Below are positions 4,894-60,837 of a stretch of 64,000 nt of DNA, one piece after another. Numbering within the stretch: position 1 is the stretch's first letter; each line of letters opens with the position of its first letter. Source of the DNA: Eledone cirrhosa (taxonomy: Eukaryota). A model generated the notes under the pieces. That model had not been told where the DNA came from and made no database searches. It saw nothing but the letters and a program-made list of their open reading frames with translations. Made by a program: the position numbers and the translations under genes. The stretch spans positions 377,208,001 through 377,272,000 of the forward strand of contig OZ024742.1 in NCBI GenBank assembly GCA_964016885.1, written 5' to 3'.

Positions 4894-4958
<65 letters not shown>

Positions 4959-5171
4959 CGTTTCTGAATTTGTTTAGCAAGATTCTTTATCTGAAATCGT
5001 GTGTTGAAACCGATATTGTTATACTTTGGGAGGGTCATGTTGCCAATAAGAAACACACGCACCAGTTGCTTTCACTTCAATTTAATTTATTATATATTTA
5101 TAAATTTACAAATTTATAAATTTCTGGTTGGTTGGTTGGTTCCACAACCAGATAGTTGTTTATATATATAT

Positions 5172-5216
5172 AGTCATAGTTCTTTCGTCACACACTCTGT
5201 GACCTCTTCAGTGACT
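5172..5216 (-). ncRNA. Minimal type I HHR in the inverted pLTR
   Basis: Reverse complement of the motif at 9993-10037. Confidence 0.75.
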
Positions 5217-5710
5217 GGGGATTTCTTTCTTCGTTTCTGTGCCTTTCCTTTCTTCTATCCTACGCCATTTTGTTTGTGTGTGGGTTGCGTGCTCAGTTTG
5301 CGCATGCGCGCGCCACATCCGGGTGTCTGTGTGTGTTTGTGTTCATTTTTCCATTTTTCTATTTATATTTTTCTATTTGTTTGTTTATTTATTTATTTAT
5401 TGTTGGTTGGTTGTTTGTTCTATGTGTGTGTGTGTTTTCATTTTGTGTGTGTTTTCAATTGTAAGTTGTTTGTTCTATGTGTGTGTGTGTTTTTATTTTG
5501 TTCTTAATTGTAAGTTGTGATGTTGCTGTTCCACTCATATTTTCTATTTAATTTTGGTTTTAATTCTTTTATGCTTACTGCCTCTGTAATTTGCCTAAAC
5601 ATTGCGTCTTTCTTGTGTGTGGATTCTATTTTTATTTCTATGCTCTCTAATTTACCCCTGTGTTCTATCTTAGCATGTTGGTAGAGCACAGATGATTCTT
5701 TATTATCCCC

Positions 5711-5755
5711 AGTCACTGAAGAGGTCACAGAGTCTGTGACGAAAGAACTATGACT
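5711..5755 (+). ncRNA. Minimal type I HHR in the 5' pLTR
   Basis: agtca-CTGAAGA-g-gtcacag/ctgtgac-GAAA-gaac-TA-tgact. 5-bp stem I, minimal stem III, one extra nucleotide after A9. Confidence 0.75.
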
Positions 5756-5888
5756 ATATATATATAAACAACTATCTGGTTGTGGAACCAACCAACCAAC
5801 CAGAAATTTATAAATTTGTAAATTTATAAATATATAATAAATTAAATTGAAGTGAAAGCAACTGGTGCGTGTGTTTCTTATTGGCAAC

Positions 5889-8800
5889 ATGACCCTCCCA
5901 AAGTATAACAATATCGGTTTCAACACACGATTTCAGATAAAGAATCTTGCTAAACAAATTCAGAAACGAAATATCGTAAGCCTTAGCCAGGCTAACAAGA
6001 TACTGAAAACCACCATGTTCTGTTGTCTACGAAAAACCATAACATCTCGACAACTACGCTTCATAAAACTGTGCACCACTTCTAGAATCTACACCAACAC
6101 CATCAATACCGACGTTAGAAGATTACAACTCACCAAAAAACAAGCAGATAGGCTAAAACGAACTTTAATTCTAATCATAAAAAAGAAGATCTATAGAGAA
6201 TTAAGTCATCAAGAAAAACTAAAGCGTAACCTAATACAAGAAATATCTAAAATCACCACACCAGCAGAAAAACTAACATTTATAAGCCTTATACGCCCCG
6301 AAGAACAATACATTACTCAAGAATGTAATAAGCACTTTAACAGAAAATTAAAGTGGCTTAAACAGGCAAAGCTAAATCGGGATACTATAGAGTATACCAA
6401 TAGATATCCCGACAAAATTGACGGTATCAACATGGCCGACACCTCATTATCTGAAGAGTTCAACAATGAAAATACCAACATTTATGGAAACACGGAAATA
6501 GATAATAATAAAATGTCTGTGTTACGTCTGCCACCCAAATTTGCGACATTCAAGAAGGTAAATATGATTAGTTGTCTGTCAGAAATAGAAAAATCATTTA
6601 CGAAACTACGCTGGAGCATCAAAAACAAAAACAAAAGCAACAATATACGCACACACATATACAACACACATCCCAACAACAACAGACACACAGACACAAA
6701 CAACAATAACAACAACAATAGCAACATACCCAGATACAACAACAACAATAGCAACATACCCAGATACAACAACAGACACGCAGACACAAACATCAATAAC
6801 AACACACACGGAGACAACAATAACAACAACACACACATCAACAACAACAACAATAGCAACATACCCAGATACAACAACAACAGACACGCAAACACAAACA
6901 ACAATAACAACACACACAACAACGATAACACACACACACACGGAGACAACAACAACACACATCAACAACAACACACATCAACAACAACAACACACACGCA
7001 TTCAATGCCTCTCACCACCACCACAATCTTAACAAACACACAGACACAGAAAACAAGTAATGACAGTAGCGCAGAAATCAGAGAAATAAGAGAAAGTAAT
7101 AGGATTAAAAGGAAAAGGAGATGGGAGACTAAGGACAAATAGAATAACCAAGACGAACACACAGACACACAAAATAGGGTAGATAACAACATTGAGCCAG
7201 TGGAAAGAGACAGGAGTAATTATGAGAGACATAGAAACAACCATGAAGCTGAGGCTGCTGCTGTTGGTGGAAATAGAAACAACACAACTAACAATAACAA
7301 TAGCACTAGTACACATAAAGCAGCAGCCTGGAACTCTCCGTTTTATAACCCCTCCGATAAATCATTCGACCTACGACGAGTCCACGCCACGACTTTGCCA
7401 TTTAACAAACGCACGCAGTTGCCGTCGCAGGTCGATGAACAAACAGAAGCACAATTTAGTATAGCTAAATCCGAACTTAGAAATATTATAGAACAGTATA
7501 GCAAGAAGCATAATAGAATAGAGGCCCAGCAACTGGGAGAAGAATCTGCAAATGGCTTGCGTAAGCTCATGCAGCGCTCACGTAATGGAGAGATAGCATG
7601 CTTTCCAACAGACAAGTCTGGCAGAATGTCGGTTGACAGCCTGCCAAACTACATCCAGGCAATGCAACCCCACATCACTAACACAAGAGAGGTAACACCA
7701 CAGGAGCATGAGGATAGAGAAAAAACCCTCAATGCCCATATGGTGATGTGGACAAATATAATGCAGCCCAACAAAAGGACTGCCAACAACTTCCAGGCCT
7801 GGAACAATGACGTGCCGGCGTTGTATGGGCTTCGAAAAGACCATAAAACGGGCTGGGACCCTGTCGTGGGACCACCAACACGGCCAGTCTGTGGGGCTAA
7901 CATTGCTAGTAACTACAGACTGTCCTACTTCCTCTCCCTGATCATACGCCCCATCATTGAGATGTCCCCAGATGTGTGTGACAGCACGGAGGACCTCCTC
8001 AGCAGAATCGGCGCGGGTAACCGATCTGGGGACCTAACAAACTGCATAATAGGCAGTATGGATGTTGTGTCCCTGTATCCATCTATTGACGTGGATTTTG
8101 CTGTGGAGAAATGCGTCGAAATGATCGGCGAGAGCAAGGTTGAGTTCCGTGGGATTGATACCAGTGAGCTGGGACTTCTACTTAAGCTTACCCATAGTAA
8201 TAGTTACCTAGACACTTATGACCTTAGCAACCTGTGCCCTACAAGACCAGCAAGAGGCAGACCACCTACCATTACCTCAATGGCCAAGAAAACCCACACA
8301 GATAGATGGAACGGGTGGACCAGAGCCATACGGACACCCGAAAACCACGATGAACTGAAGAAAATGATTGCACATGCGGTAGGGGCCAGCATAAAATTAA
8401 CCCTTAAGGAACATATGTTCAAATTTAATGGTAAAACATATGCCCAAGAGGAAGGAGCAGCCATTGGTGTTAGCATTGCAGGCGACATAGCTAACTTATT
8501 CATGGTATGGTGGGACAGTAGACTTAAACAAAAACTTAATGAACAATTAGAAGACAGCTTAACCCTGATAATGTACTCCCGCTACGTAGATGATATAAAC
8601 ATCGTAGTTAAGACACCCCCACTAAAGAACAGTCAGGAACTAGAGAAAAACACAATGGAAAGCATCCAGCAAATAGCAAACTCCATCCACCAGAGCATTA
8701 GAGTTACTATAGACTACCCAAGTAGACACCCCAACCATCGATTACCTGTACTAGACACAGAGCTCTGGTTAGATACAATTAACAACCAAAAACAAATCCT

Positions 8801-9713
8801 CCATTCCCATTATGCCAAACCCATGACTTCCAAACATCTGATCCACCGAAACTCGGCCATTTCGCACCATACCAAAATCAACATACTGATTGCGGATTTG
8901 GTACGGGTGATGAGAAATGTGTCCCGCATGTGCAACCCCGAAGAACTAGAGAGACACATACAACATTTCATCCACCGTATGCAGTTCTCTGGCTACAATC
9001 AGAGAGATAGAATCAGAGTGTATAAAGGAGCCAGAACCAAATGGGAAAAAATGGGAAATAATGACATAAATGGGACCTGCCCCTTGTATAGGAGCAAATT
9101 TTGGAATAGAATAGAAAGAACTAAGAACAAGGCCAATAGAATAAACTCATGGTATGATAGCAATAAATACCAGAGTGTAATGTTCATCAATACAACCCCT
9201 AGAGGCGAACTAGCCTACAAATTTAGAAGGGCCCTAAAGAAACATAATCTCAATATTAAGATAGTAGAAAGACCTGGTACCTCCGTAAAAACACTTATTA
9301 GCAAGACATACCCGTTCCAAAGACCCTCATGTATAGATAAGAAATGTATAACCTGTAAAATAAGCCCCCATATTAACTGTAAAACTAGAAATGTAGTATA
9401 TAGCATAAGATGTACTGAAGGACAATGTAGAAACAAAAATATAGTGTACATAGGTGAGACAGCTCGTAGTATAGGGGAACGAATAAATGAACACTGGCGA
9501 GACCTCCAAGATAATAAAGAATCATCTGTGCTCTACCAACATGCTAAGATAGAACACAGGGGTAAATTAGAGAGCATAGAAATAAAAATAGAATCCACAC
9601 ACAAGAAAGACGCAATGTTTAGGCAAATTACAGAGGCAGTAAGCATAAAAGAATTAAAACCAAAATTAAATAGAAAATATGAGTGGAACAGCAACATCAC
9701 AACTTACAATTAA
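5889..9713 (+). CDS. PLE polyprotein: N-terminal domain, reverse transcriptase, Cys-rich linker, GIY-YIG endonuclease; one in-frame TAG at 7140-7142
   Basis: Track ORFs 5865-7142 and 7200-9713 share a frame with 19 open codons between them. ATG at 5889 lies in the pLTR. Motifs LPPKF..EIEK..KLRW, PTDKSG, SMDVVSLYPSI, GAAIG, RYVDD, LPVLD, CxxxxCxxC..C, VVY..C..C..YIGET.R...R..EH, LNRK.EW. Confidence 0.92.
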
Positions 9714-9992
9714 GGACAAAATGAAAACACACACACACATAGAACAAACAACTTACAATTGAAAACACACACAAAATGAAAACACACACATAGAACAAAC
9801 AACCAACCAACAATAAATAAATAAATAAACAAACAAATAGAAAAATATAAATAGAAAAATAGAAAAATGAACACAAACACACACAGACACCCGGATGTGG
9901 CGCATGCGCAAACTGAGCACGCAACCCACACACAAACAAAATGGCGTAGGATAGAAGAAAGGAAAGGCACAGAAACGAAGAAAGAAATCCCC

Positions 9993-10037
9993 AGTCACTG
10001 AAGAGGTCACAGAGTGTGTGACGAAAGAACTATGACT
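9993..10037 (+). ncRNA. Minimal type I HHR in the 3' pLTR
   Basis: agtca-CTGAAGA-g-gtcaca/tgtgac-GAAA-gaac-TA-tgact. Confidence 0.75.
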
Positions 10038-10681
10038 ATATATATATAAACAACTATCTGGTTGTGGAACCAACCAACCAACCAGAAATTTATAAATTTG
10101 TAAATTTATAAATATATAATAAATTAAATTGAAGTGAAAGCAACTGGTGCGTGTGTTTCTTATTGGCAACATGACCCTCCCAAAGTATAACAATATATAT
10201 ATATATATATATATAAGCATACAAATAGAATGAGAATAAGAAGAAAGCAAGAACAGGGGGGGGGGTTCCTCATCAGTTGTCTACTGAGGGTCTCGGATAT
10301 TTCAATGCTTTACAGACAATATACCTACCGCCCAGAGCGTTCAATAACCAGGTAAGTTATTTGGAAAACGGAGGAGGGAGGGAAATAAAATAGAAGGGAA
10401 AAGGTGAAAAGGCAACGGTGGAACACAATTTAACTATTTTAAATTTTGATGGCATCACTAAGAAGATGAAATAAAAGCTAAGTTAACAATATGGATCGAC
10501 AGCATGAGGCAGTCGATACGATTAATGTTTAAAACGATATCCAATCTTCGCTGTTTATTAACCTGAACTAGAAATCAATAAAGAATTTCAATATCTGCTG
10601 CTAATATAACAAAATAGTATTTAATTACATTTTAACTTTAAAAAAAAAGGTGAGAAATGTTGTTTAATATACCCAGCTCTT

Positions 10682-13600
10682 ATTGTTGGTAGTCAGTGAG
10701 TAAGAGGTTAGCTCCTGGTAACTAGGACCGTGTTGTTGGTAGTCAGAGAGTTAGAGGTTAGCTCCAGGTAACTAGGACCGTGTTGTTGGTAGACAGTGAG
10801 TAAGAGGTTATCACCTGGTAACTAGGACCGTGTTGTTGGTAGTCAGTGAGTTAGAGGTTAGCTCCTGGTAACTAGGACCGTGTTGTTGGTAGTCAGTGAG
10901 TAAGAGGTTAGCTCCTGGTAACTAGGACCGTGTTGTTGGTAGTTAGTGAGTAAGAGGTTATCACCTGGTAACTAGGACCGTGTTGTTGGTAGACAGTGAG
11001 TAAGAGGTTATCACCTGGTAACTAGGACCGTGTTGTTGTAGTCAGTGAGTAAGAGGTTAGCTCCAGGTAACTAGGACCGTGTTGTTGGTAGTTAGTGAGT
11101 AAGAGGTTATCACCTGGTAACTAGGACCGTGTTGTTGGTAGACAGTGAGTAAGAGGTTATCACCTGGTAACTAGGACCGTGTTGTTGGTAGTCAGTGAGT
11201 AAGAGGTAATCACCTGGTAACTAGGACCGTGTTGTTGGTAGACAGTGAGTAAGAGGTTAGCTCCTGGTAACTAGGACCGTGTTGTTGGTAGTCAGTGAGC
11301 AAGAGGTTATCACCTGGTAACTAGGACCGTGTTGTTGGTAGTCAGTGAGTTAGAGGTTAGCTCCAGGTAACTAGGACCGTGTTGTTGGTAGACAGTGAGT
11401 AAGAGGTTATCACCTGGTAACTAGGACCGTGTTTTTGGTAGTCAGTGAGTTAGAGGTTAGCTCCAGGTAACTAGGACCGTGTTGTTGGTAGACAGTGAGT
11501 AAGAGGTTATCACCTGGTAACTAGGACCGTGTTGTTGGTAGACAGTGAGTAAGAGGTTATCACCTGGTAACTAGGACCGTGATGTTGGTAGTCAGTGAGT
11601 AAGAGGTTATCACCTGGTAACTAGGACCGTGTTGTTGGTAGTCAGTGAGTTAGAGGTTAGCTCCAGGTAACTAGGACCGTGTTGTTGGTAGACAGTGAGT
11701 AAGAGGTTATCACCTGGTAACTAGGACCGTGTTTTTGGTAGTCAGTGAGTTAGAGGTTAGCTCCAGGTAACTAGGACCGTGTTGTTGGTAGACAGTGAGT
11801 AAGAGGTTATCACCTGGTAACTAGGACCGTGTTGTTGGTAGACAGTGAGTAAGAGGTTATCACCTGGTAACTAGGACCGTGATGTTGGTAGTCAGTGAGT
11901 AAGAGGTTATCACCTGGTAACTAGGACCGTGTTGTTGGTAGTCAGTGAGTAAGAGGTTATCACCTGGTAACTAGGACGGTGTTGTTGGTAGACAGTGAGT
12001 AAGAGGTTATCACCTGGTAACTAGGACCGTGATGTTGGTAGTCAGTGAGTAAGAGGTTATCACCTGGTAACTAGGACCGTGTTGTTGGTTGTCAGTGAGT
12101 AAGAGGTTATCACCTGGTAACTAGGACCGTGTTGTTGGTAGTCAGTGAGTAAGAGGTTATCACCTGGTAACTAGGACCGTGTTGTTGGTAGTCAGTGAGT
12201 AAGAGGTTATCACCTGGTAACTAGGACCGTGTTGTTGGTAGTCAGTGAGTAAGAGGTTATCACCTGGTAACTAGGACCGTGTTGTTGGTAGTCAGTGAGT
12301 AAGAGGTTATCACCTGGTAACTAGGACCGTGTTGTTGGTAGTCAGTGAGTAAGAGGTTATCACCTGGTAACTAGGACCGTGTTGTTGGTAGTCAGTGAGT
12401 TAGAGGTTAGCTCCTGGTAACTAGGACCGTGTTGTTGGTAGTCAGTGGTTAAGAGGTTAGCTCCAGGTAACTAGGACCGTGTTGTTGGTAGTCAGTGAGT
12501 AAGAGGTTATCACCTGGTAACTAGGACCGTGTTGTTGGTAGTCAGTGAGTAAGAGGTTATCACCTGGTAACTAGGACCGTGTTGTTGGTAGTCAGTGAGT
12601 AAGAGGTTATCACCTGGTAACTAGGACCGTTTTGTTGGTAGTCAGTGAGTAAGAGGTTATCACCTGGTAACTAGGACCGTGTTGTTGGTAGTCAGTGAGT
12701 AAGAGGTTAGCTCCAGGTAACTAGGACCGTGTTGTTGGTAGTCAGTGAGTAAGAGGTTATCACCTGGTAACTAGGACCGTGTTGTTGGTAGTCAGTGAGT
12801 AAGAGGTTATCACCTGGTAACTAGGACCGTGTTGTTGGTAGTCAGTGAGTAAGAGGTTAGCTCCAGGTAACTAGGACCGTGTTGTTGGTAGTCAGTGAGT
12901 AAGAGGTTATCACCTGGTAACTAGGACCGTGTTGTTGGTAGTCAGTGAGTTAGAGGTTATCACCTGGTAACTAGGACCGTGTTGTTGGTAGTCAGTGATT
13001 AAGAGGTTATCACCTGGTAACTAGGACCGTGTTGTTGGTAGTCAGTGAGTTAGAGGTTATCACCTGGTAACTAGGACCGTGTTGTTGGTAGTCAGTGAGT
13101 TAGAGGTTAGCTCCTGGTAACTAGGACCGTGTTGTTGGTAGTCAGTGAGTAAGAGGTTATCACCTGGTAACTAGGACCGTGTTGTTGGTAGTCAGTGAGT
13201 AAGAGGTTATCACCTGGTAACTAGGACCGTGTTGTTGGTAGACAGTGAGTAAGAGGTTATCACCAGGTAACTAGGACCGTGTTGTTGGTAGTCAGTGAGT
13301 AAGAGGTTATCACCAGGTAACTAGGACCGTGTTGTTGGTAGTCAGTGAGTAAGAGGTTATCACCTGGTAACTAGGACCGTGTTGTTGGTAGTCAGTGAGT
13401 AAGAGGTTATCACCTGGTAACTAGGACCGTGTTGTTGGTAGTCAGTGAGTAAGAGGTTATCACCTGGTAACTAGGACCGTGTTGTTGGTAGTCAGTGAGT
13501 AAGAGGTTAGTTCCTGGTAACTAGGACCGTGTTGTTGGTAGTCAGTGAGTTAGAGGTTAGCTCCTGGTAACTAGGACCGTGTTGTTGGTAGTCAGTGAGT

Positions 13601-16075
13601 AAGAGGTTATCACCAGGTAACTAGGACCGTGTTGTTGGTAGTCAGTGAGTAAGAGGTTATCACCTGGTAACTAGGACCGTGTTGTTGGTAGTCAGTGAGT
13701 AAGAGGTTAGCTCCAGGTAACTAGGACCGTGTTGTTGGTAGTCAGTGAGTAAGAGGTTATCACCTGGTAACTAGGACCGTGTTGTTGGTAGTCAGTGAGT
13801 AAGAGGTTATCACCTGGTAACTAGGACCGTGTTGTTGGTAGTCAGTGAGTAAGAGGTTATCACCTGGTAACTAGGACCGTGTTGTTGGTAGTCAGTGAGT
13901 AAGAGGTTATCACCTGGTAACTAGGACCGTGTTGTTGGTAGTCAGTGAGTAAGATGTTATCACCTGGTAACTAGGACCGTGTTGTTGGTAGTCAGTGAGT
14001 AAGAGGTTATCACCTGGTAACTAGGACCGTGTTGTTGGTAGTCAGTGAGTAAGAGGTTATCACCTGGTAACTAGGTCCGTGTTGTTGGTAGTCAGTGAGT
14101 TAGAGGTTAGCTCCTGGTAACTAGGACCGTGTTGTTGGTAGTCAGTGGTTAAGAGGTTAGCTCCAGGTAACTAGGACCGTGTTGTTGGTAGTCAGTGAGT
14201 AAGAGGTTATCACCTGGTAACTAGGACCGTGTTGTTGGTAGTCAGTGAGTAAGAGGTTATCACCTGGTAACTAGGACCGTGTTGTTGGTAGTCAGTGAGT
14301 AAGAGGTTATCACCTGGTAACTAGGACCGTTTTGTTGGTAGTCAGTGAGTAAGAGGTTATCACCTGGTAACTAGGACCGTGTTGTTGGTAGTCAGTGAGT
14401 AAGAGGTTAGCTCCAGGTAACTAGGACCGTGTTGTTGGTAGTCAGTGAGTAAGAGGTTATCACCTGGTAACTAGGACCGTGTTGTTGGTAGTCAGTGAGT
14501 AAGAGGTTATCACCTGGTAACTAGGACCGTGTTGTTGGTAGTCAGTGAGTAAGAGGTTAGCTCCAGGTAACTAGGACCGTGTTGTTGGTAGTCAGTGAGT
14601 AAGAGGTTATCACCTGGTAGCTAGGACCGTGTTGTTGGTAGTCAGTGAGTTAGAGGTTATCACCTGGTAACTAGGACCGTGTTGTTGGTTGTCAGTGAGT
14701 AAGAGGTTATCACCTGGTAACTAGGACCGTGTTGTTGGTAGTCAGTGAGTTAGAGGTTATCACCTGGTAACTAGGACCGTGTTGTTGGTAGTCAGTGAGT
14801 AAGAGGTTATCACCTGGTAACTAGGACCGTGTTGTTGGTAGTCAGTGAGTTAGAGGTTATCACCAGGTAACTAGGACCGTGTTGTTGGTAGTCAGTGAGT
14901 AAGAGGTTATCACCTGGTAACTAGGACCGTGTTGTTGGTAGACAGTGAGTAAGAGGTTATCACCAGGTAACTAGGACCGTGTTGTTGGTAGTCAGTGAGT
15001 AAGAGGTTATCACCAGGTAACTAGGACCGTGTTGTTGGTAGTCAGTGAGTAAGAGGTTATCACCTGGTAACTAGGACCGTGTTGTTGGTAGTCAGTGAGT
15101 AAGAGGTTATCACCTGGTAACTAGGACCGTGTTGTTGGTAGTCAGTGAGTAAGAGGTTATCACCTGGTAACTAGGACCGTGTTGTTGGTAGTCAGTGAGT
15201 AAGAGGTTAGTTCCTGGTAACTAGGACCGTGTTGTTGGTAGTCAGTGAGTTAGAGGTTAGCTCCTGGTAACTAGGACCGTGTTGTTGGTAGTCAGTGAGT
15301 AAGAGGTTATCACCAGGTAACTAGGACCGTGTTGTTGGTAGTCAGTGAGTAAGAGGTTATCACCTGGTAACTAGGACCGTGTTGTTGGTAGTCAGTGAGT
15401 AAGAGGTATCACCTGGTAACTAGGACTGTGTTGTTGGTAGTCAGTGAGTAAGAGGTTATCACCTGGTAACTAGGACCGTGTTGTTGGTAGTCAGTGAGTA
15501 AGAGGTTAGTTCCTGGTAACTAGGACCGTGTTGTTGGTAGTCAGTGAGTAAGAGGTTATCACCTGGTAACTAGGACCGTGTTGTTGGTAGTCAGTGAGTA
15601 AGTGGTTATCACCTGGTAACTAGGACCGTGTTGTTGGTAGTCAGTGAGTAAGAGGTTATCACCTGGTAACTAGGACCGTGTTGTTGGTAGTCAGTGAGTA
15701 AGAGGTTAGTTCCTGGTAACTAGGACCGTGTTGTTGGTAGTCAGTGAGTTAGAGGTTAGCTCCTGGTAACTAGGACCGTGTTGTTGGTAGTCAGTGAGTA
15801 AGAGGTTATCACCTGGTAACTAGGACCGTGTTGTTGGTAGTCAGTGAGTAAGAGGTTAGCTCCTGGTAACTAGGACCGTGTTGTTGGTAGTCAGTGAGTT
15901 AGAGGTTATCACCAGGTAACTAGGACCGTGTTGTTGGTAGTCAGTGAGTTAGAGGTTATCACCAGGTAACTAGGACCGTGTTGTTGGTAGTCAGTGAGTA
16001 AGAGGTTATCACCTGGTAACTAGGACCGTGTTGTTGGTTGTCAGTGAGTTAGAGGTTAGCTCCTGGTCACTAGCC
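10682..16075. repeat. 50-bp tandem satellite, ~108 units
   Basis: Consensus GTTGTTGGTAGTCAGTGAGTAAGAGGTTATCACCTGGTAACTAGGACCGT, no spacers, no ORF in the track. Degenerate tail to ~16110. Confidence 0.98.
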
Positions 16076-24950: not shown

Positions 24951-27336
24951 TGTGGCTGCCAACTCTTTTTCGAGTACGGCCACTACTTTATATCCATGTA
25001 GGAGAACCCCCACCGATGCGCTGAACGAGTGTGGCTTTTTAGTCCAGCCAGCGACTTGAAAACTCTGGTACAAACACTACACTTGTGACAATTATTGACA
25101 CCTAGTGTTGGGCCCATGGTACCATGTGACCCAAGTATCGTGTGGGATCACTACTCGACCTGCATACCTTCCACAAACATTACATGTCGTCTCTGATGAA
25201 CACTTATAGCTCAACAGGTGCCTGCTTCCTTGTTCTTGTGCACTCTCAGGTGACTCTTTAGACCTGCCATGCTCAGACAAACCCTATTACAGGTCTCACA
25301 TGTCAGGTCAGGCCGTCTGTCAGTGCCTTCGGGAAGGTCAACATGGATTCCTTTCCGAACATCTCTTTTTAGTGTCGCGTGCCTTCTTCTTGTTTCCTCA
25401 AATAGACTCTTGCCACTAGCCACTGCTTTCCTCCAATGCGATCGGTCGCTAGCGCATGCTTCCCAGTGCTCACAAGGGATGTTACTTTTCTTGAGCGCCC
25501 CCTTGATGCAGTCCTTAAAACGCATCTTGGGTTTGCTCGCGTTCCTTTTTGCCATTTGGAGCTCGCCATAAAGCAGCTGCTTCGGCATTCGCTTGTCATT
25601 CATCCTTACAAGGTGGCCTGTCCAGCGCAGCTGATGTTTCAAAATCAAGGACTCGACACTATCACAGCCACTTCTGTCCAGAACCTCGACGTCACTGACA
25701 AACATTTGCCAAGTTATGCCGAGGATCCGACGTAAGCAGTACTGGTGGAACCTCTCAAGTCGCTTCATCTGTCTACGGTAGACCACCCACGTCTCACAAG
25801 CATAAAGAAGTGCCGCGAGCACACACGCATGATACACTTTGAGCTTTGTCTTTACCGAAATTCCGTGTTGGACCAGAGACGCTTGTTCAGTTTTCCAAAA
25901 GCATCACTGGCTTTCTGTACCCTGTTTGATATTTCCCTATCAAGATCGCAGGACATACTGAGAGTGCTTCCAAGATATACAACACTGCCAACGACCCTTA
26001 GCCTTTCACAATAAACCAAGATGTTGGGCTCACAACATGGCTTCCCAGGGGCTGGTTGGTACATGGCTACTATATTTTTCAGACTTATGGTAAGTCCCAA
26101 TGCAGTACACGCATTAGAAAATGCATCCATGAGATGCTGCATATCAATATCCGTGTGCGCTACCAGGTCACAGTGATCTGCATAAAGCAAATCCCTGATT
26201 AGAGACAAGTGAACCTTTGACTTAGCATTGAACCTCCTGATATTAAACAGCTTTCCAGTTGATCGATAGCGAACATATATACCATGATTGCAGTTCCCGA
26301 AGGCCTGTTCGAAGACAATGGAGAAGTACAAAGCAGAGAGCGTTGGAGCTAGAATGTCACCCTTTTTGACTCCATTCTCGACCGTCACCGGCCCAGAGAG
26401 CTTTCCACCAACATTTACCCATGCCTTTATGTCATCATGAAACAAACGCAAAATGGAAACAAACTTCTCACGGCACCCCAGCTTCCTCAAGATATCCCAT
26501 AAAGCCTTTCTGTTGACCGTGTCAAACGCCTTTGTCAGATCAACAAACACCTGGTAGAGATCCACATTCTGCTCAACACACTTTTCCTGCAGTTGTCTGG
26601 CTGTAAAGATCATGTCCACAGTGCCACGCCCAGCCCGAAAACCCGATTGCGACTCTGGTAGAGCTTCATCAGCAATGTGGAGCAAAGACGGTCCAACAGA
26701 ATTCTAAAGAGAACTTTGCCGACAACAGACAACAGTGATATCCCACGATAGTTTCCGCAGTCATCCCTGTCTCCCTTTCTCTTGTTCAAAACAACCATCA
26801 CAGCATCCTTCCTGTCATCGGGAACATGATTGTTGTTCCAGGCATCCAGAACCAAAGAATGAAGTCGGTGCAAGAGATTCTCTCCATCGTGCTTCAAGAT
26901 CTCAGCATACAGCCCATCCAATCCAGGCGACTTCCCACCATTGAGTTTCCAGACAGCCCTTTTAACCTCCTCGATCGTTGGAGGCTCAGCAAGGATTTCC
27001 TTTACTGGCTTATCAGGTATGGACCTGATAAACTCTTCGTCAACCTCTGAATCCCTATTGAGAAGCTTGTCAAAGTGTTCCCGCCATCTCAACAGGATAT
27101 CATTGGGATCTCTAAGGAGCTGATTGTCCTAAGAGGCGCAACTGGTGATGTAGGTGGTCCATACACTTCACGAAGAATATTATACATTGCCTTAACGTCC
27201 TTCACATCCGACGCAAGTTGTATTTCATCGGCTTTGTCATTCCACCACTTATTCTTCATTTCACGCAATTTTCGTTGCACATCAGCTTTTACGAGCTTCA
27301 GCTTATCAGCGATTTCCTTTCTGCCGATCGGTGCTT
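24951..27336 (-). pseudogene. 5'-truncated, frameshifted RTE-clade (BovB-like) LINE: RT and C-terminal zinc finger
   Basis: Successive minus ORFs: GKSPGLDG..AE, NYRGISLLS, LPESQSGFR..RGTVDMIF, FVDLTKAFD, GVKKG..LAP, LLYAD, YLGS, LRWTGHLVRM...RMPKQLLYGEL, CETC...AGLKSH. Confidence 0.93.
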
Positions 27337-28782: not shown

Positions 28783-29375
28783 GTCAGGTCACCAGTTGGT
28801 GCTACTGGTAACATGTATCCCAGTACAACCTGTCCCAAGGTCGGGTCGTTGGCGACTAAAATGGCAACACCACCAAGGTTTCTTGGTGAGGAGGGTGACT
28901 TTGGACATCCTGCAGGACTAAAAACAAAACCTGTCAAAGGGAAAAAGAGCTCTTAAGAGTCAATGGCCATCCAAAATCACCGGGAGAGATGACCCCTTAG
29001 CCTTTGTCAAGGCAGAATTCTAGGAGAAGGAAAGCTCTGATATAACACCTGCAACCCTGATGGTATCCAATGATGTTGACTTGTTCTTCTTTTTGGTAAA
29101 TATCATCTTGGTTAAGAGAGTGGGACTGGCTTTGTGCAGTGGCTTTGCTCACTATAAAAGCTTCATGGCACAGGCATTGCTTTATATCTGGAGATCTCTC
29201 TGCACTTGTCGTCACATGGTACCATTGGCCTAGCACTATGTGTCAATAATTGTCACAGGTGTAGTGTTTGTACCAGAGTTTTCAAGTCGCTGGCTGGACT
29301 AAAGTCACATTCGTTCAGCGCATCGGTAGGAGTTCTCCTACATGGATATAAAGTAGTGGCCGTACTCGAAAACGA
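28783..29375 (+). mobile_element. ~600-bp non-autonomous RTE-derived element (3' tip missing)
   Basis: Highly similar copies at 30746-31355, 31505-32097, 49426-50033, 52085-52521 (-) and 63975-64000. The 3' part encodes [17 protein letters not shown] like the RTE C-terminus. (ATGT)n flanks. Confidence 0.85.
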
Positions 29376-29751
29376 AAACCAGTATGACTCTAAGAACCGG
29401 TTTGTCTGTGTGTCTACATACGGAATAGCTGGACACTCACAGTAAAGTGACCAGTGAAAACTCGGTACATCTACATATGTACACGTGTGTGTATTCATAT
29501 GCATACTAGTATTTCAGTATACATATGTGGATGTACATTTTTAACTTAATTGTTTAAGCGCCAGTCATACAAAAGTGAGTTACAAACGAAACGAAATTTA
29601 ATTTCGTTTCGTTATTTGTTTTTATCGTCTCCGTTGAACCGGTACGTACTCACGCTCTATGCAAATTGGTCTGCCCACTACTAATTTTCATAGAAAAAGC
29701 ATATAACGATATGTGCTTTCACGATTCTCTAGAGAAGCCGGAAGATAGGTA

Positions 29752-29796
29752 AATATTGCTGATGAGATGTAACAACATCGAAACTAGTCCAATATT
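29752..29796 (+). ncRNA. Canonical minimal type I hammerhead ribozyme
   Basis: aatattg-CTGATGA-gatgt(aaca)acatc-GAAA-ctag-TC-caatatt. GUC site predicts cleavage after 29789. Palindromic ACTAGT stem III. Confidence 0.93.
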
Positions 29797-30216
29797 CCTT
29801 GTCTGGCTTTCTGGAGAATAGAGGAAAGGTGTTTCCTCAAAAACCAGTATGACTCTAAGAACCGGTTTGTCTGTGTGTCTACATACGGAATAGCTGGACA
29901 CTCACAGTAAAGTGACCAGTGAAAACTCGGTACATCTACATATGTACACGTGTGTGTATTCATATGCATACTAGTATTTCAGTATACATATGTGGATGTA
30001 CATTTTTAACTTAATTGTTTAAGCGCCAGTCATACAAAAGTGAGTTACAAACGAAACGAAATTTAATTTCGTTTCGTTATTTGTTTTTATCGTCTCCGTT
30101 GAACCGGTACGTACTCACGCTCTATGCAAATTGGTCTGTCCACTACTAATTTTCATAGAAAAAGCATATAACGATATGTGCTTTCACGATTCTCTAGAGA
30201 AGCCGGAAGATAGGTA

Positions 30217-30261
30217 AATATTGCTGATGAGATGTAACAACATCGAAACTAGTCCAATATT
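30217..30261 (+). ncRNA. Canonical minimal type I hammerhead ribozyme (second unit)
   Basis: Identical to 29752-29796, offset +465. Confidence 0.93.
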
Positions 30262-30745
30262 CCTTGTCTGGCTTTCTGGAGAATAGAGGAAAGGTGTTTC
30301 CTCAAAAACCAGTATGACTCTAAGAACCGGTTTGTCTGTGTGTCTACATACGGAATAGCTGGACACTCACAGTAAAGTGACCAGTGAAAACTCGGTACAT
30401 CTACATATGTACACGTGTGTGTATTCATATGCATACTAGTATTTCAGTATACATATGTGGATGTACATTTTTAACTTAATTGTTTAAGCGCCAGTCATAC
30501 AAAAGTGAGTTACAAACGAAACGAAATTTAATTTCGTTTCGTTATTTGTTTTTATATATATATATATATATATATATGTGTATGTATATATGTATGTATG
30601 TATATATGCATGTATATATATATATGTATATATATATGTATGTATGTATATATGTATGTATATATGCATATATATATGTATATGTATGTATATATGTATG
30701 TATATGTAAATGTGTGTGTATGTGTATATGTATATATATATATTA

Positions 30746-31355
30746 TGTCAGGTCACCAGTTGGTGCTACTGGTAATATGTATCCCAGTACAACCTGTCTC
30801 ATGGTCGGGTCGTTGGCGACTAAACTGGCAACCCCACCAAGGTTTCTTGGTGAGGAGGGTGACTTTGGACATCCTGCAGGACTAAAAACAAAACCTGTCA
30901 AAGGGCAAAGGAGCTCTTAAGAGTCAATGGCCATCCAAAATCACCGGGAGAGATGACACCTTAGCTTTTGTCAAGGCAGAATTCTAGGAGAAGGAAAACT
31001 CTAATATACCACCTGCAACTCTGATGGTCTCCAATGATGTTGACTTGTTCTTCTTTTTGGTAAATATCATCTTGGTTAAGAGAGTGGGACTGGCTTTGTG
31101 CAGTGCCTTTGTTCACTATAAAAGCTTCACGACACAGGCATTGCTTTATATCTGGAGATCTCTCTGCACTTGTCATCATATGGTACCATGGGCCCAGCAC
31201 TATGTGTCAATAATTGTCACAAGTGTAGTGTTTGTACCAGAGTTTTCAAGTCACTGGCTGGACTAAAAAGTCACACTCGTTCAGCGCATCAGTAGGGGTT
31301 CTCCTACATGGATATAAAGTAGTGGCCGTACTCGAAAACGAGTTGGCAGCCACCA
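30746..31355 (+). mobile_element. Non-autonomous RTE-derived element, full length
   Basis: GTCAGGTCACCAGTTGG ... GAGTTGGCAGCCACC followed by (ATGT)n. Confidence 0.88.
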
Positions 31356-33587: not shown

Positions 33588-34771
33588 GTTCTTTGAGTCT
33601 CAGTCATTGATGTTATTTAACTGGAAAGTTTGTTGAAATGAATATCAAGCCACTACCTGCAGCCTCAGATATTCAGGACGTATCGGAGGGTTCTTGCTGT
33701 TCCCAGCAAGCATGCCTTTTGAAGTGTTCCAAGAAGCGGGGCGGGACAAATTTTCTTTAACCATCCCTGGAAACTCTTTGAGATAGTATCTAGTGCGCCT
33801 ATGACAATCGGGACCACTTTGACCTCATGGCAGTTCCAAATCCCTTTTACCTCCCACTTTAAGTCCTGGTATCGGTTAATTTTCTCCCTCTCTTTCTCTT
33901 GCACTCTCGTGTCGAATGGGCAGGCTACATCCACAATCAGGCACGATCTTTATTCCCTTGTCCAAAACCACCAGGTCAGGTCTATTGTGTTCCAGTTTCT
34001 TGTCCGTCTGTATCCTAAAATCCCACAGCACCTTCACCTGATCGTTTTCCATCACCGACTCTGGCTTATACTCATACCACTTCTCAGAATGTGGTAAATT
34101 GTTTACTTTGCATAGGTGCCAGTGGATCACCCTGCCCATCACATCATGTCTCCAGCCTTTATAGTGAGTCTGGGCTAGGTGTTTACACTCGGATACAATG
34201 TGAGCCACAGCCTCCTCTCTCTCTCCACAGATCCTACACAGTGGGCTAGCCTCCTCCTTGTAAATATGGTGCTTCAGCCACTTCGTTTTGAGGGCCTGCT
34301 CCTGCGCAACCATTAGCATTCCTTCTGTAGCCTTTTTAAGGTCTCCTCTTTTCAACCAGTTCCAGCATTGGCTCCTTACTATCAGTCACGTATTTGTGTA
34401 GGTTGTTTTTCTCCATCTGAACACAGTCCTCTATGCTGATAAGACCTCTCCCACCTTCAGAACTCCTTAAGTAGAGTCTATCGACATCACTCCTCTTGTG
34501 GAACATGTTGTAGATAGTCAATAGCTTCCTAGTCTTCCTATCCATTTCTTTTTGTTCAGCAACATTCCATCTCAGAATTCCCGCACTGTACCTAATAATA
34601 GACACAGCTCGGGAATTTACTGCACTTATGGCATTCCTACTGTTCAGATGTGACTTTAATACGCTCCTTACTCTCCGAATGTATTCAGATCTTATCAATT
34701 CCTTCATTTTTTTGTTCTTGATGTCATCAGCCTCCAGAACACCCAAATACTTGTATCCTTCTTCAGTGTCA
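33587..34771 (-). pseudogene. 5'-truncated R4/Dong-clade non-LTR retrotransposon (RT thumb, CCHC, restriction-like endonuclease)
   Basis: YKYLGVLE, RLYL....GGRGL, CRIC....E...HIVSEC, RHD, WDF.IQTD....NRPDLV, DVACP, EK..RY.DL, VVPIVIGAL. Flanked by (TAA)n both sides. Confidence 0.92.
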
Positions 34772-34794
34772 TTATTATTATTATTATTATTATT

Positions 34795-35355
34795 AGAACG
34801 GATCCGGCTATGAGCTGAGTCCATCCTGAGCATTGCCCCGCCCTCTCTTCCTTTAGCCGGGAATGGCAGGCAGTTTTTATCTGTCTGGTGGCCATGGCGA
34901 AAGAGATAGTATGGTGGACACGTTTGAAAGGGCTGAAGACGAGCACTTACCTCTTCGGTGATGCCCTGATTAACTTTTTCAAATTTCATTTGAAAAGGAA
35001 AATCAGGGTAGAGAGGGAAGTGCTCTCTTCCCAGCATTTTGTTGAAAGATGGGTGAGAAAAGCAAGTATGGCCCGAATGAATGGGCCTTCTCTGAGTATG
35101 TGTCTGTAAATTAAAGATGGAAAACTGGGAGAGGGCACTTGCCCTGGTAGTCAGGGTCACTGTGGTCTTTTAATGGGCTTTCTCCACAAATGTCCCTCGG
35201 AAGTCTCCCCCCTATTGGGGAATTTTTCTTTGTTATTTTATTACATCCTCTGTTTTTTTTACACGCAGAAATGCCCATTTGTACCGTCCTGTATTGTCCT
35301 GTACTGTCCTTAATGTCTACTTTATGTAAACCCTTGTGGTTAATAAAGAAAACAT
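34795..35355 (+). mobile_element. 3' end of an L1/Tx1-like LINE (ORF2 tail plus 3' UTR)
   Basis: AKEIVWWTR...FKFHLKRKIRVERE.....F.ERW resembles Tx1 C-termini. The UTR is repeated at 33321-33505. Confidence 0.6.
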
Positions 35356-49244: not shown

Positions 49245-49425
49245 AATAAACGAAGCCAAATTTTAAACATTTGACTTATTTATTTTATTTTATTTTATAT
49301 ATATATATAGGTGTGTGAGTGTGTATATGAGTGTTTGTATGCGAGTGTGTGTGCATATGTATCTATGTATGAATATATTTGTATAATATATATATGTGTG
49401 TGCGTGTGTGTATGTATGTATATAT

Positions 49426-57301: not shown

Positions 57302-57307
<6 letters not shown>

Positions 57308-57948
57308 GGAAAAAATGAAACGAAATTTCATTTCCCACTCTTAGTACGGCTGTTACTTAAATATAAGTATGTAGACATACATACATATATGTATACAGAC
57401 GTACAGTAGTATGTATATATATATATACATACATGCATACATATATATATGTACGTATGGATTCACCGAACATTTATTATATATAATGCTCGATGTGTTT
57501 GTAAACAAACATCCCCTATTAAGCCGTAGTGTCTAGCAACCATCGTTGCTCGTTTTCTCAACACCGACAAAGGAACGCTGTACTAGTTTCAAGCTTATTA
57601 GCTATCGTCAGCAACGTATACCTTCCTGCCAGATTGTTGAACGTATATACTTACCTTATGCATATTAACGTCTGAGTAGCCCAATTTGCATATCGAGTGG
57701 GTTAATCGGCCGGGTGCACCGAAAACGATAAACGGAAAAAATGAAACGAAATTTCATTTCCCACTCTTAGTACAGCTGTTACTTAAATATAAGTATATAC
57801 ACGTACATACACATATGTATACAGCCGTACAGTAGTATGTATATATATATACATACATGCATACATATATATATGTACGTATGGATTCACCGAACATTTA
57901 TTATAATGCTCGATGTGTTTGTAAACAAACATCCCGTATTAAGCTGTA
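57302..57948 (-). mobile_element. Retrozyme-like 426-bp tandem (1.5 units)
   Basis: 57303-57528 is repeated at 57729-57948. HHR in the unique part. (TA)n flanks. Confidence 0.82.
57575..57617 (-). ncRNA. Minimal type I HHR
   Basis: acgttg-CTGACGA-t-agct(aata)agct-t-GAAA-ctag-TA-cagcgt. Confidence 0.85.
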
Positions 57949-59431: not shown

Positions 59432-59659
59432 AAGGCGGGTAAAATTCCCGAGATCCATGGACGAGTTCTCTCCAGCGGTCTCTGTCCCTCATTATCGCTG
59501 CCATGTCCTGCGTCTCCAACAGACCAGTGTCTGTCCTTAGGGCATCAACATACGTTAACCTTGGTCTTCCACTTCTAGTGTGTCAATATAGGGGCTCCCA
59601 AAGGAGCACTGAGTGCAATGTCAACTCTGGATGTCGGTGAGCATGTCCAGCCAACCTCA

Positions 59660-60204
59660 GGACTCTGGCTTTACTCTGGCACCGGCTCAGGAGAGTTAGG
59701 GCGAAAAAGGTATCGGATGCTGAATTTGCCGACGACATAGTTTTGGTGACAAATACAGTGAAGGAGACAGAGGATTTGATGCGGGAGGTTGAGACTGTGT
59801 CGATGAGTGTGGCACTGAGAATGAATGAGACTAAAACAAAATATTTGGTAGAGAATGTTGAGAAGCCAGAGGGGATCACTAATGTAGGCGAGAAGCCGCT
59901 AGAATTGGTTGAGGACTTCGTGTATTTGGGAGCAAAGATTGGGAATACGGAAGATGATGTGGTTGAGAGGAAGAGCAATCCCTGGGCGGCGTGCCACAGC
60001 TTGAGATCGTTGTGGAAGTCGGACCTTCGTAGAGACCTGAAAATCCGCCTCTTCATTGCTGTAGTGGAGTCTGTGCTGCTGTATGGGTCTGCGACTTGGA
60101 CACTGACCAACAAACTCACTCAGATGGTGGATGGCTGCTACACGAGAATGCTGAGGATGGCTCTGAACATTAATCAGTATACACTGAGGATGAAAACCTC
60201 AGAG

Positions 60205-60207
<3 letters not shown>
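59660..60207 (+). pseudogene. Non-LTR retrotransposon RT fragment (RTE-X/L2-like)
   Basis: EFADDIVL, L.MN..KTK, VEDFVYLG, KIRLF...VESVLLYG..TWTL, YTRMLR.AL. Truncated at (TA)n. Confidence 0.85.
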
Positions 60208-60267
<60 letters not shown>

Positions 60268-60274
<7 letters not shown>

Positions 60275-60837
60275 ATACTTTGGGAGGGTCATGTTGCCAA
60301 TAAGAAACTCACGCACCAGAGGCTTTCACTCCAATTTATTATAAATTAAATTATAAATTAAAAAATTTATATATTTCTGGTTGGTTGGCTGGTTCCACAA
60401 CCGGACAGTTGTTCATATATTGTCAGAGTTCTTTCGTCACACATTCTGTGACCTCTTCGGTGACTGGGGATTCTTTTCTTCGTTTTGTGCCTCTCCTTTG
60501 TTCTGTACTACGCCATCTTGTTTTTTGTGAAACGACTGGTGCGTGTGTTTCTTATTGGCAACATGACCCTCCCAAAGTATAATTGTTTCTACTTTTGGCA
60601 CAAGGCCAGCAAATACCCAGTACATTACTGGTACTTTATTTTATCGACCCCGTAAGGATGAAAGGCAAAGTCAACCTCGGCGGGATTTGAACTCAGACCG
60701 TAAAGGGACGTAACTATGCTTCAAAGCATGGTGTCCGACTCTCTACCGATATTGCCAATCCACCGCCCTAAGTATAATACTATCGGTTTCAACACACGTT
60801 TTCAGATAAAGAATCTTGCTAAACAAATTCAGAAACG

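What the first reader, a model, noticed from the sequence alone, without database searches (positions are those of the whole stretch)
29375..30555. Young 465-bp tandem with a perfect hammerhead per unit: candidate circular RNA retrozyme
Seen: 2.5 near-identical units (I noticed one substitution). Each full unit has a textbook minimal type I HHR with a GUC site and palindromic ACUAGU stem III. Stem I is extended by a ~17-bp helix (29725-29742 with 29802-29818), and there are further hairpins such as AACGAAACGAAAT/ATTTCGTTTCGTT. The array ends at TAT fused to (TA)n. Established: metazoan non-LTR retrozymes are tandem HHR repeats yielding circRNAs, and minimal HHRs cleave as dimers. Inference: cleavage after 29789 and 30254 releases a 465-nt monomer that circularises and is rolling-circle copied by a PLE RT.
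Basis: partly seen in the sequence, partly recalled or inferred. Interest (0 to 1): 0.85.

Follow-up and report, generated by a model that had tools for sequence, protein, structure and literature searches.

The report
Penelope-copied hammerhead retrozyme in octopus-like genome
A 465-base non-coding repeat carrying a hammerhead (self-cutting RNA) motif in every unit has spread to well over a thousand TA-microsatellite sites, mostly as two back-to-back arms ending at two fixed points, a footprint that likely shows a Penelope-type reverse transcriptase copied it, probably from an RNA circle that has not yet been observed.

Summary
Observation confirmed: 29375-30555 is 2.54 copies of a 465-bp unit, one substitution, two type I hammerheads (predicted cuts after 29789, 30254). 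Correction: the ribozyme is full-length type I; only stem III is minimal, so cleavage as a dimer is predicted. It is not a local duplication: 1,520 exact 43-nt hammerhead copies and 1,934 identical 3' junctions to (TA)n lie in the 3.0-Gb genome. New here: of 126 arm ends read, 67 stop at unit position 298-304 and 53 at 223-236. In 47 of 51 back-to-back insertions one arm uses each site; one same-site insertion was found separately. This matches the Penelope 'tail' and its two reverse-transcription starts. No 3' end lies at the cut site; 109 of 125 arms cross it; lineage variants are all-or-none across whole arrays; inherited changes spare predicted pairs. This favours a one-unit circular template, but no RNA run was available, cleavage is untested, the partner enzyme was not identified and long arrays also grew locally. 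Verdict: new member of the animal non-LTR retrozymes, with unusually direct genomic evidence on how they move.

The parts
29375..30555 (+). Retrozyme array, 2.54 head-to-tail copies of a 465-bp unit; begins at unit position 51 (5'-truncated), ends at unit position 301 (position 1 = 29790)
29741..29812 (+). Type I hammerhead 1: stem I 29753-29758/29790-29795, core CTGATGA 29759-29765, stem II 29766-29779, GAAA, palindromic ACTAGT 29783-29788, predicted cut after C29789
30206..30277 (+). Type I hammerhead 2, identical; predicted cut after C30254
29790..30254 (+). Predicted 465-nt monomer between the two cuts; non-coding (longest stop-free frame 64 aa), 37% GC, 66% paired as a circle
29725..29818 (+). 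Distal helix extending stem I (29725-29742 with 29802-29818), predicted
30515..30555 (+). 13-bp hairpin (30515-30543) and site A, the fixed 3' end at unit position 301; internal copies of the site at 29625 and 30090
29929..30021 (+). Long hairpin (unit 140-211) followed by site B (unit 227/232 = 30016/30021), the second fixed 3' end in relatives; internal, not used as an end, in this single-armed copy
30556..30747 (.). (TA)n / (TATG)n microsatellite, the inferred target
28784..29374 (+). Left flank: unrelated dispersed repeat of about 590 bp whose last 16 or so bases are missing at the junction with the array (a second copy lies at 30748-31355)
57302..57948 (-). Sister retrozyme family, unit about 420-435 bp, colinear with this unit over its whole length, hammerhead core at 57611, same kind of 3' end
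4957..10195 (+). Near-intact autonomous Penelope-like element (inverted 5' pLTR, RT and GIY-YIG-type ORF with one stop at 7140-7142, 3' pLTR). Shows the same two-end architecture; not shown to be the partner

Best explanation
This is a young copy of a dispersed, non-coding, hammerhead-bearing tandem retroelement (non-LTR retrozyme) whose copies end at two fixed internal points inside TA microsatellites and which is likely copied by a Penelope-like reverse transcriptase, probably from a 465-nt RNA circle. Steps: (1) inferred: read-through transcription of an array; (2) predicted: neighbouring hammerheads pair their ACUAGU palindromes and cut as a double hammerhead, releasing a monomer whose ends stay together in stem I; (3) inferred from other animals: a host ligase closes it, and a lone hammerhead with unstable stem III would cut the circle poorly; (4) inferred from the shown insertion ends: a PLE RT/endonuclease dimer cuts both strands of a (TA)n tract and primes cDNA from each, one at unit position 301 and the other at 227/232, giving two back-to-back arms; (5) shown: arms read through the cut site without scars, often several times; (6) shown: some long arrays later grew by block duplication. 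The window copy is a single arm from site A.
For: Dispersal: 1,520 exact hammerhead 43-mers, control 0; 1,934 exact site-A/(TA)n junctions, control 0; 536 forward-strand site-B junctions (the reverse count is inflated by overlaps). Fixed ends: 126 visible 3' ends in 75 loci, 67 at 298-304, 53 at 223-236, 6 other; leaving out the 20 loci picked by the site-A pattern, 46/42/6. Coupling: 47 of 51 back-to-back pairs with both ends visible are A+B, none A+A or B+B, 4 with one irregular end; from the pattern lists on C1, 25 of 27 (these overlap the fetched loci). No 3' end at the cut site: 0 matches genome-wide. This is the PLE tail and inverted-copy architecture (PMC8557442, passages) and the two RT start sites of a PLE protein that cuts and extends both strands (PMC11167929, parts 1-2); a PLE in the window shows it too. 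One-unit template: 109 of 125 arms cross the cut site, 1 of 125 5' ends lies within 2 nt of it; junction length exact in 404 of 406 crossings; variants 98A and 229C all-or-none in 14 of 14 young arrays, 136 units; 237C in all 40 pattern matches of the two-armed C12 array and all 3 in the window; 242 fixed against 15 mixed locus-by-variant cells; only 4 of 151 minor variants shared between loci; arms of one insertion differ by a median 0.45% against 2.9% to other loci, n=46. Selection on RNA structure: substitutions seen in 2 or more loci break predicted pairs in 22 of 80, private ones in 79 of 148, Fisher p 1.7e-4; 6 of 12 hammerhead pairs change on both sides across subfamilies and the sister family. 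Double-hammerhead fold -195.0 against free -195.4 kcal/mol; monomer stem III +6.0, dimer duplex -4.8.
Against: No cleavage assay, and no direct observation of RNA of any form. For the anole PLE, hammerhead mutants did not affect insertion in vitro and uncut RNA was the main template (PMC11167929), so an uncut linear multimer is a real alternative. Eight of nine predicted Xenopus retrozyme dimers did not cut in vitro (preprint 10.64898/2026.07.22.740005). Periodic shared variants in L076, L084, L085+86 and C12 show local block duplication, which could homogenise arrays without a circle. One true B+B insertion exists (L176). In 10 of 46 pairs at least one other locus's arm was closer than the partner arm. 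Core conservation within the family alone is weak evidence: 0 of 13 core positions carry inherited variants where about 2 are expected. The 8 hammerheads are related, so the shuffle control is not a probability. No PLE sharing the end sequences was found.
Confidence: 0.7

Rival explanations
1. Same element and same PLE enzyme, but the template is an uncut linear multimeric transcript; the hammerhead is slow or serves another step, and arrays are homogeneous because short sources were expanded locally before being copied.
For: Uncut RNA was the main substrate of the anole PLE in vitro (PMC11167929); local block duplications are visible in long arrays; two fixed start sites and seamless junctions fit equally well.
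Against: No mixed array among 14 young arrays for one-base lineage variants; both inverted arms carry the same variants; almost no minor variants are inherited between loci, 4 of 151; young arms of up to 17-18 units would need intact 8-kb transcripts holding that many conserved hammerheads.
Confidence: 0.21
2. The template is the cut linear monomer, and multimers arise by the RT jumping from the 5' end to a 3' end again and again.
For: Gives a one-unit bottleneck without ligation; stem I would hold the two ends together; 17 of 125 5' breakpoints fall in the 34 nt around the cut site, against about 9 if uniform.
Against: 404 of 406 crossings have the exact junction length; only 1 of 125 5' ends lies within 2 nt of the cut; no 3' end at the cut site.
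Confidence: 0.05
3. A DNA-level repeat (satellite, Helitron-like or extrachromosomal DNA circle) that merely carries a relic hammerhead.
For: Satellite-like local expansion occurs; no RNA evidence is in hand.
Against: Strand-polarised fixed 3' ends with scattered 5' ends, the A+B coupling and the (TA)n junctions match PLE insertions in the same genome; inherited variants spare predicted RNA pairs.
Confidence: 0.03
4. A local tandem duplication or assembly artefact.
For: None beyond the near-identity of the units.
Against: Over a thousand dispersed copies in unique flanks on many contigs; raw-run contigs show the same 3' junction to TA at 29625 and 30090 (table 7).
Confidence: 0.01

Closest known systems
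Metazoan non-LTR retrozymes of coral, mussel and axolotl (Cervera and de la Pena 2020, PMC7229834; parts 2-4 of 6 read, supplement not readable)
   Same: Non-coding low-GC tandem units, one type I hammerhead each, strongly self-paired predicted circle, thousands of copies. The hammerhead fits the description of axolotl HHR_Amex1: one-pair helix III with a palindromic tetraloop, full loops 1 and 2, efficient only as a dimer.
   Different: Unit of 465 bp is just above their 150-450 bp; weak helix III in a mollusc, where that group reports mostly stable helix III in invertebrates (PMC7761336, passages); circles were shown there and are not shown here; the fixed two-site inverted insertion pattern was not described in the parts read.
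Penelope-like elements with pLTR 'tail' (Craig et al. 2021, PMC8557442, passages; Frangieh et al. 2024, PMC11167929, parts 1-2 of 4)
   Same: 5' truncation, inverted 5'-truncated partner copy, a tail on one end only, microsatellite or AT-rich targets, two internal RT starts, hammerhead upstream of the starts.
   Different: No ORF; tail 69-74 nt instead of 30-40; both arms are multimers of a complete small unit; full-length instead of minimal hammerhead; no sequence match to any PLE pLTR examined.
Vertebrate retrozymes as non-autonomous PLE derivatives (Li, Clavereau and Pollet 2026, bioRxiv 10.64898/2026.07.22.740005; parts 1-3 of 5 read, to the end of the discussion)
   Same: PLE origin or mobilisation proposed; unit range 51-972 bp includes 465.
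   Different: Their evidence is co-occurrence and pLTR homology, and they favour local amplification of a pLTR into tandems; here the insertion ends show that multimeric arms arrive at new sites. No mollusc was sampled.
Non-autonomous Chlamys PLEs such as MRC1 (PMC8557442, passage)
   Same: Non-coding PLE passengers with multicopy head-to-tail insertions.
   Different: They share 3' sequence with their autonomous family and belong to a clade without canonical hammerheads.

Membership tests
Metazoan non-LTR retrozyme | Head-to-tail repeats of a unit of a few hundred bp | tested here: met
   465 bp, 2.5 copies here, up to 39 in one arm elsewhere
Metazoan non-LTR retrozyme | A complete type I hammerhead in every unit | tested here: met
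   below Rfam's gathering score but full-length, E 1.2e-7
Metazoan non-LTR retrozyme | Non-coding, GC below 50%, no LTR structure | tested here: met
   longest stop-free frame 64 aa; GC 37%; no LTR layout in 75 loci; PBS and PPT not searched separately
Metazoan non-LTR retrozyme | Dispersed, multi-copy, mobile | tested here: met
Metazoan non-LTR retrozyme | Predicted highly self-paired circular monomer | tested here: met
   z -9.7, 66% paired
Metazoan non-LTR retrozyme | Self-cleavage of the transcript | not testable with these tools
   predicted only
Metazoan non-LTR retrozyme | Accumulation of monomeric circular RNA in vivo | tested here: inconclusive
   no RNA holder listed; only contigs of unknown kind could be laid
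Metazoan non-LTR retrozyme | Target-site duplication longer than 4 bp when present | tested here: inconclusive
   ends merge with (TA)n, so a duplication cannot be delimited
Penelope-like element insertion pattern | 5' truncation with fixed 3' end; inverted 5'-truncated partner; tail on one end only | tested here: met
Penelope-like element insertion pattern | Microsatellite or AT-rich target | tested here: met
   118 of 129 alignment pieces with a visible 3' end abut a TA run
Autonomous Penelope-like element | RT and GIY-YIG ORF | tested here: not met
   no ORF in the unit; it is a passenger, not an autonomous PLE
Derivative of a known PLE pLTR | Sequence homology to the pLTR or 3' end of an autonomous family | tested here: inconclusive
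   blastn of the unit against held loci found only its own and the sister family; about seven other hammerhead-bearing families compared by eye show different ends; the genome's PLEs were not surveyed completely
Minimal PLE-type hammerhead | Lacks helix III or the loop 1 / loop 2 elements | tested here: not met
   stem I bulge and 6-nt loop 2 align to the full HH9 model; the tertiary contact itself was not tested

The most novel reading that the evidence does not exclude
Each two-armed insertion records one PLE RT dimer holding a single 465-nt RNA circle at two sites about 70 nt apart and rolling round it from both cut DNA strands: double rolling-circle target-primed reverse transcription. The family would be a natural small substrate that defines the PLE 'tail' and explains inverted pLTRs.
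Probability: 0.45. Interest if true: 0.78.

Novelty: new member of a known kind. Interest (0 to 1): 0.58.

Why it matters
The enzyme that moves animal retrozymes is an open question: a 2020 review says the repeats show no motif that reveals their helper (PMC7761336, passage), and later support is co-occurrence and homology. Here the insertion ends carry the PLE footprint in more than a thousand copies, with one arm from each of two start sites nearly always. That makes two long-standing questions testable with a 465-nt RNA: whether RNA circles are templates for genome insertion, and how PLE tails and inverted ends arise. The family is very young (identical arrays on many chromosomes) and has a sister family with about as many or more copies. 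The element class itself is known.

Tried and rejected
Rfam at gathering thresholds: no match in the window; microRNA-family hits are microsatellite noise. Expression: no RNA holder listed. Four runs of unknown kind were laid: X4 and X6 each hold the unit as one contig of unit length plus 30 (495 and 496 nt), as a head-to-tail cycle gives in an assembly graph; tandem DNA gives the same, so this does not show a circle, and missing cover of the flanks in X4 is not evidence. A second hammerhead on the minus strand of the array (viroid-like ambisense): none by motif scan or Rfam. Priming at the ribozyme-cut 3' end: 0 junctions. Partner search: the window's PLE (tail about 57 nt) and families with end spacings of about 45, 68-72, 88, 89, 90 and 97 nt share no evident end sequence; a looser site-A pattern gave 5,346 forward matches, and the 11 non-family loci inspected were sister-family sequence without ORF evidence in what was printed. 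'Private haplotype' test: the window's 237C and the L082 haplotype are not private to one locus, so a strictly private variant fixed in both arms was not demonstrated. Literature searches listed no paper on cephalopod retrozymes or on two-site inverted retrozyme insertions; the library lacks most subscription papers and Repbase; the supplement of PMC7229834 and paper PMC5785218 could not be read, and bioRxiv supplements are closed. No earlier scan finding matched the sequence or this genome.

Full report
OBSERVATION. The array is real: 29375-30555, period 465, 2.5 copies, one substitution at 29674/30139. Two hammerhead cores start at 29759 and 30224 with C17 at 29789 and 30254. Rfam HH9 aligns over its whole model, 38.9 bits, E 1.2e-7, under the gathering score. 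The alignment shows a 4-nt bulge beyond a 6-bp stem I, an outer stem and a 6-nt loop 2, i.e. a full-length type I motif; only stem III is reduced, to ACUAGU. As a hairpin this costs +6.0 kcal/mol and has pairing probability 0; as a duplex between neighbouring units it gains -4.8, and a forced double-hammerhead fold of 29720-30290 (-195.0) is as stable as the free fold (-195.4). This is the arrangement described for the axolotl HHR_Amex1, which cuts well only as a dimer (PMC7229834). The monomer folds far better than shuffles (z -9.7) and has no reading frame over 64 codons. Numbering below: position 1 = 29790.

SURROUNDINGS. The genome has 3.0 Gb in 1,796 contigs. A PLE protein in the window has its best hit, 69% identical, in Octopus vulgaris, so the host is inferred to be an octopus-like mollusc. 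The array's 5' end (position 51) interrupts a 590-bp dispersed repeat about 16 bp before its end; its 3' end (position 301) runs into (TA)n.

FAMILY. An exact 43-nt hammerhead pattern occurs 1,520 times, control 0; the exact 3' junction to (TA)n 1,934 times, control 0. I fetched 75 loci: 17 best hits to the unit, the first 20 site-A junctions on C1, 19 hammerhead hits on C1, 18 hits to a 237C pattern, and the window. They are a small, non-random part of the family; the first group is biased to young long arrays and the second is selected for site A. Identity to the window unit runs from about 84% to 99.9%.

INSERTION RULE. Of 126 visible 3' ends, 67 lie at 298-304, 53 at 223-236 (232: 24; 227: 23) and 6 elsewhere; without the site-A-selected group 46/42/6. 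5' ends are scattered round the unit. Most insertions are two arms pointing away from each other, each running into (TA)n. Of 55 such pairs 4 reach the edge of the fetched stretch; of the other 51, 47 have one A and one B end, none A+A or B+B, and 4 have one irregular end. From the genome-wide pattern lists for the first 144 Mb of C1, which overlap the fetched set, 25 of 27 back-to-back pairs within 20 kb are A+B; the one A+A is two separate insertions (L062) and the one B+B is genuine (L176). No 3' junction lies at the ribozyme cut (0 matches). A sister family, unit about 420-435 bp and colinear with this one, ends at the homologous two places. Both sites lie 11-21 nt after a predicted hairpin. 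The autonomous PLE at 4957-10195 has the same build: an inverted 5' pLTR and two ends about 57 nt apart, both in (TA)n. In print, PLEs have inverted 5'-truncated copies and a 30-40-bp tail on one end only (PMC8557442); the purified anole PLE protein, predicted to be a dimer, cuts and extends both strands of AT-rich DNA and starts at two internal sites that delimit the tail (PMC11167929). I infer that a PLE RT made these insertions (about 0.9) and that the two starts are used by one complex, one per DNA strand.

TEMPLATE. 109 of 125 complete arms cross the cut site and 1 begins within 2 nt of it; 404 of 406 crossings have the exact length. So the template was continuous across the site: a circle or an uncut multimer. 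Arrays are homogeneous: among 24 loci with 3 or more full units, 242 locus-by-variant cells are fixed, 15 mixed and 1,567 absent; the one-base lineage markers 98A and 229C are all-or-none in 14 of 14 young arrays; the window's 237C is in all three window copies and all 40 matches in a two-armed array on C12 that has the window's haplotype. Only 4 of 151 minor variants recur at another locus. The two arms of an insertion differ by a median 0.45%, against 2.9% to other loci (46 pairs), though in 10 pairs some other arm was closer. This is what passage through a single unit predicts. Against: the markers tested were not private to one locus; L076, L084, L085+86 and C12 show periodic variants from later block duplication, so local homogenisation exists and the longest arrays do not measure RT processivity; and the anole PLE used uncut RNA in vitro. 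I put the circle at about 0.7-0.75 given PLE mobilisation.

FUNCTION OF THE RNA FOLD. Substitutions present in two or more loci break predicted pairs in 22 of 80 cases, private ones in 79 of 148 (p 1.7e-4; one MFE structure, lineages not independent). In 8 chosen hammerheads from subfamilies and the sister family the core is unchanged except at positions 7 and 17, 95.8% of cells pair, and 6 of 12 pairs change on both sides, most of them once, between the two families. Cleavage itself is untested, and 8 of 9 predicted Xenopus elements did not cut in vitro.

RNA EVIDENCE. None: no RNA holder was listed, and the contigs laid cannot separate circle from tandem DNA.

PARTNER. Not identified; see Tried and rejected. 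Candidates exist in the genome, including the element in this window and more distant RT hits at 25-29% identity.

COMPARISON AND NOVELTY. It meets every sequence-level criterion of a metazoan non-LTR retrozyme; cleavage and circles remain untested. It works like a non-autonomous PLE but is not an autonomous PLE, and no pLTR homology was found. Seven literature searches listed no cephalopod retrozyme and no description of the two-site inverted pattern in retrozymes; unread supplements, subscription papers and repeat databases may hold it. Verdict: new member of a known kind, with a useful mechanistic footprint; interest 0.58.

Noticed in passing
window 4957-10195 (+): Near-intact Penelope-like element with inverted 5' pLTR, hammerhead-like motifs at 5211 (-), 5716 and 9998, and an ORF of about 1,285 codons with one stop; RT and GIY-YIG-type regions; 69% to an Octopus vulgaris protein.
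   Followed up: partly
window 57302-57948 (-); L147, L152, L154, L156, L166, L167, L174, L175: Sister retrozyme family with a U-U mismatch at the base of stem II and a GUA cut triplet; a shared end pattern gives 5,346 forward-strand matches for both families together, so roughly 10,000 junctions.
   Followed up: partly
window 481, 1681, 1983, 2495, 4231, 4735, 22396, 23127, 23488, 40759, 47904, 49195, 55755, 56628, 58076: At least seven other families with hammerhead-like cores, many in inverted pairs ending in (TA)n at two family-specific distances: the genome is crowded with PLE-type elements.
   Followed up: partly
G000:C12:14528541-14547710 (L091-L093): 39+2-unit two-armed array with the window's haplotype and internal block duplications; parent, daughter or sibling of the window copy.
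   Followed up: yes
L086 (G000:C1:117906500-117916499), hammerhead-like cores at about 5912, 6222, 6532: Another tandem with a 310-bp period and a different hammerhead-like motif, probably a third retrozyme family.
   Followed up: no
L149:1801-1862 and relatives: A common subfamily (19 loci held) has an A-U to U-A swap in stem II and U instead of C at the cut position.
   Followed up: partly
window 28784-29374 and 30748-31355 (also near 49420): Two or more copies of a very abundant 590-bp dispersed repeat flanked by (TATG)n; not identified.
   Followed up: no
window 10683-16073: 108 copies of a 50-bp minisatellite, 95% matches.
   Followed up: no
window 25211-27128 (-), 33876-35169 (-), 59641-60303 (+): Fragments of LINE-type RT ORFs.
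   Followed up: no
runs X4 and X6: Each holds the unit as one contig of unit length plus 30; the X4 variant has a base (29692 G) not seen in run X1. Run kind unknown.
   Followed up: no
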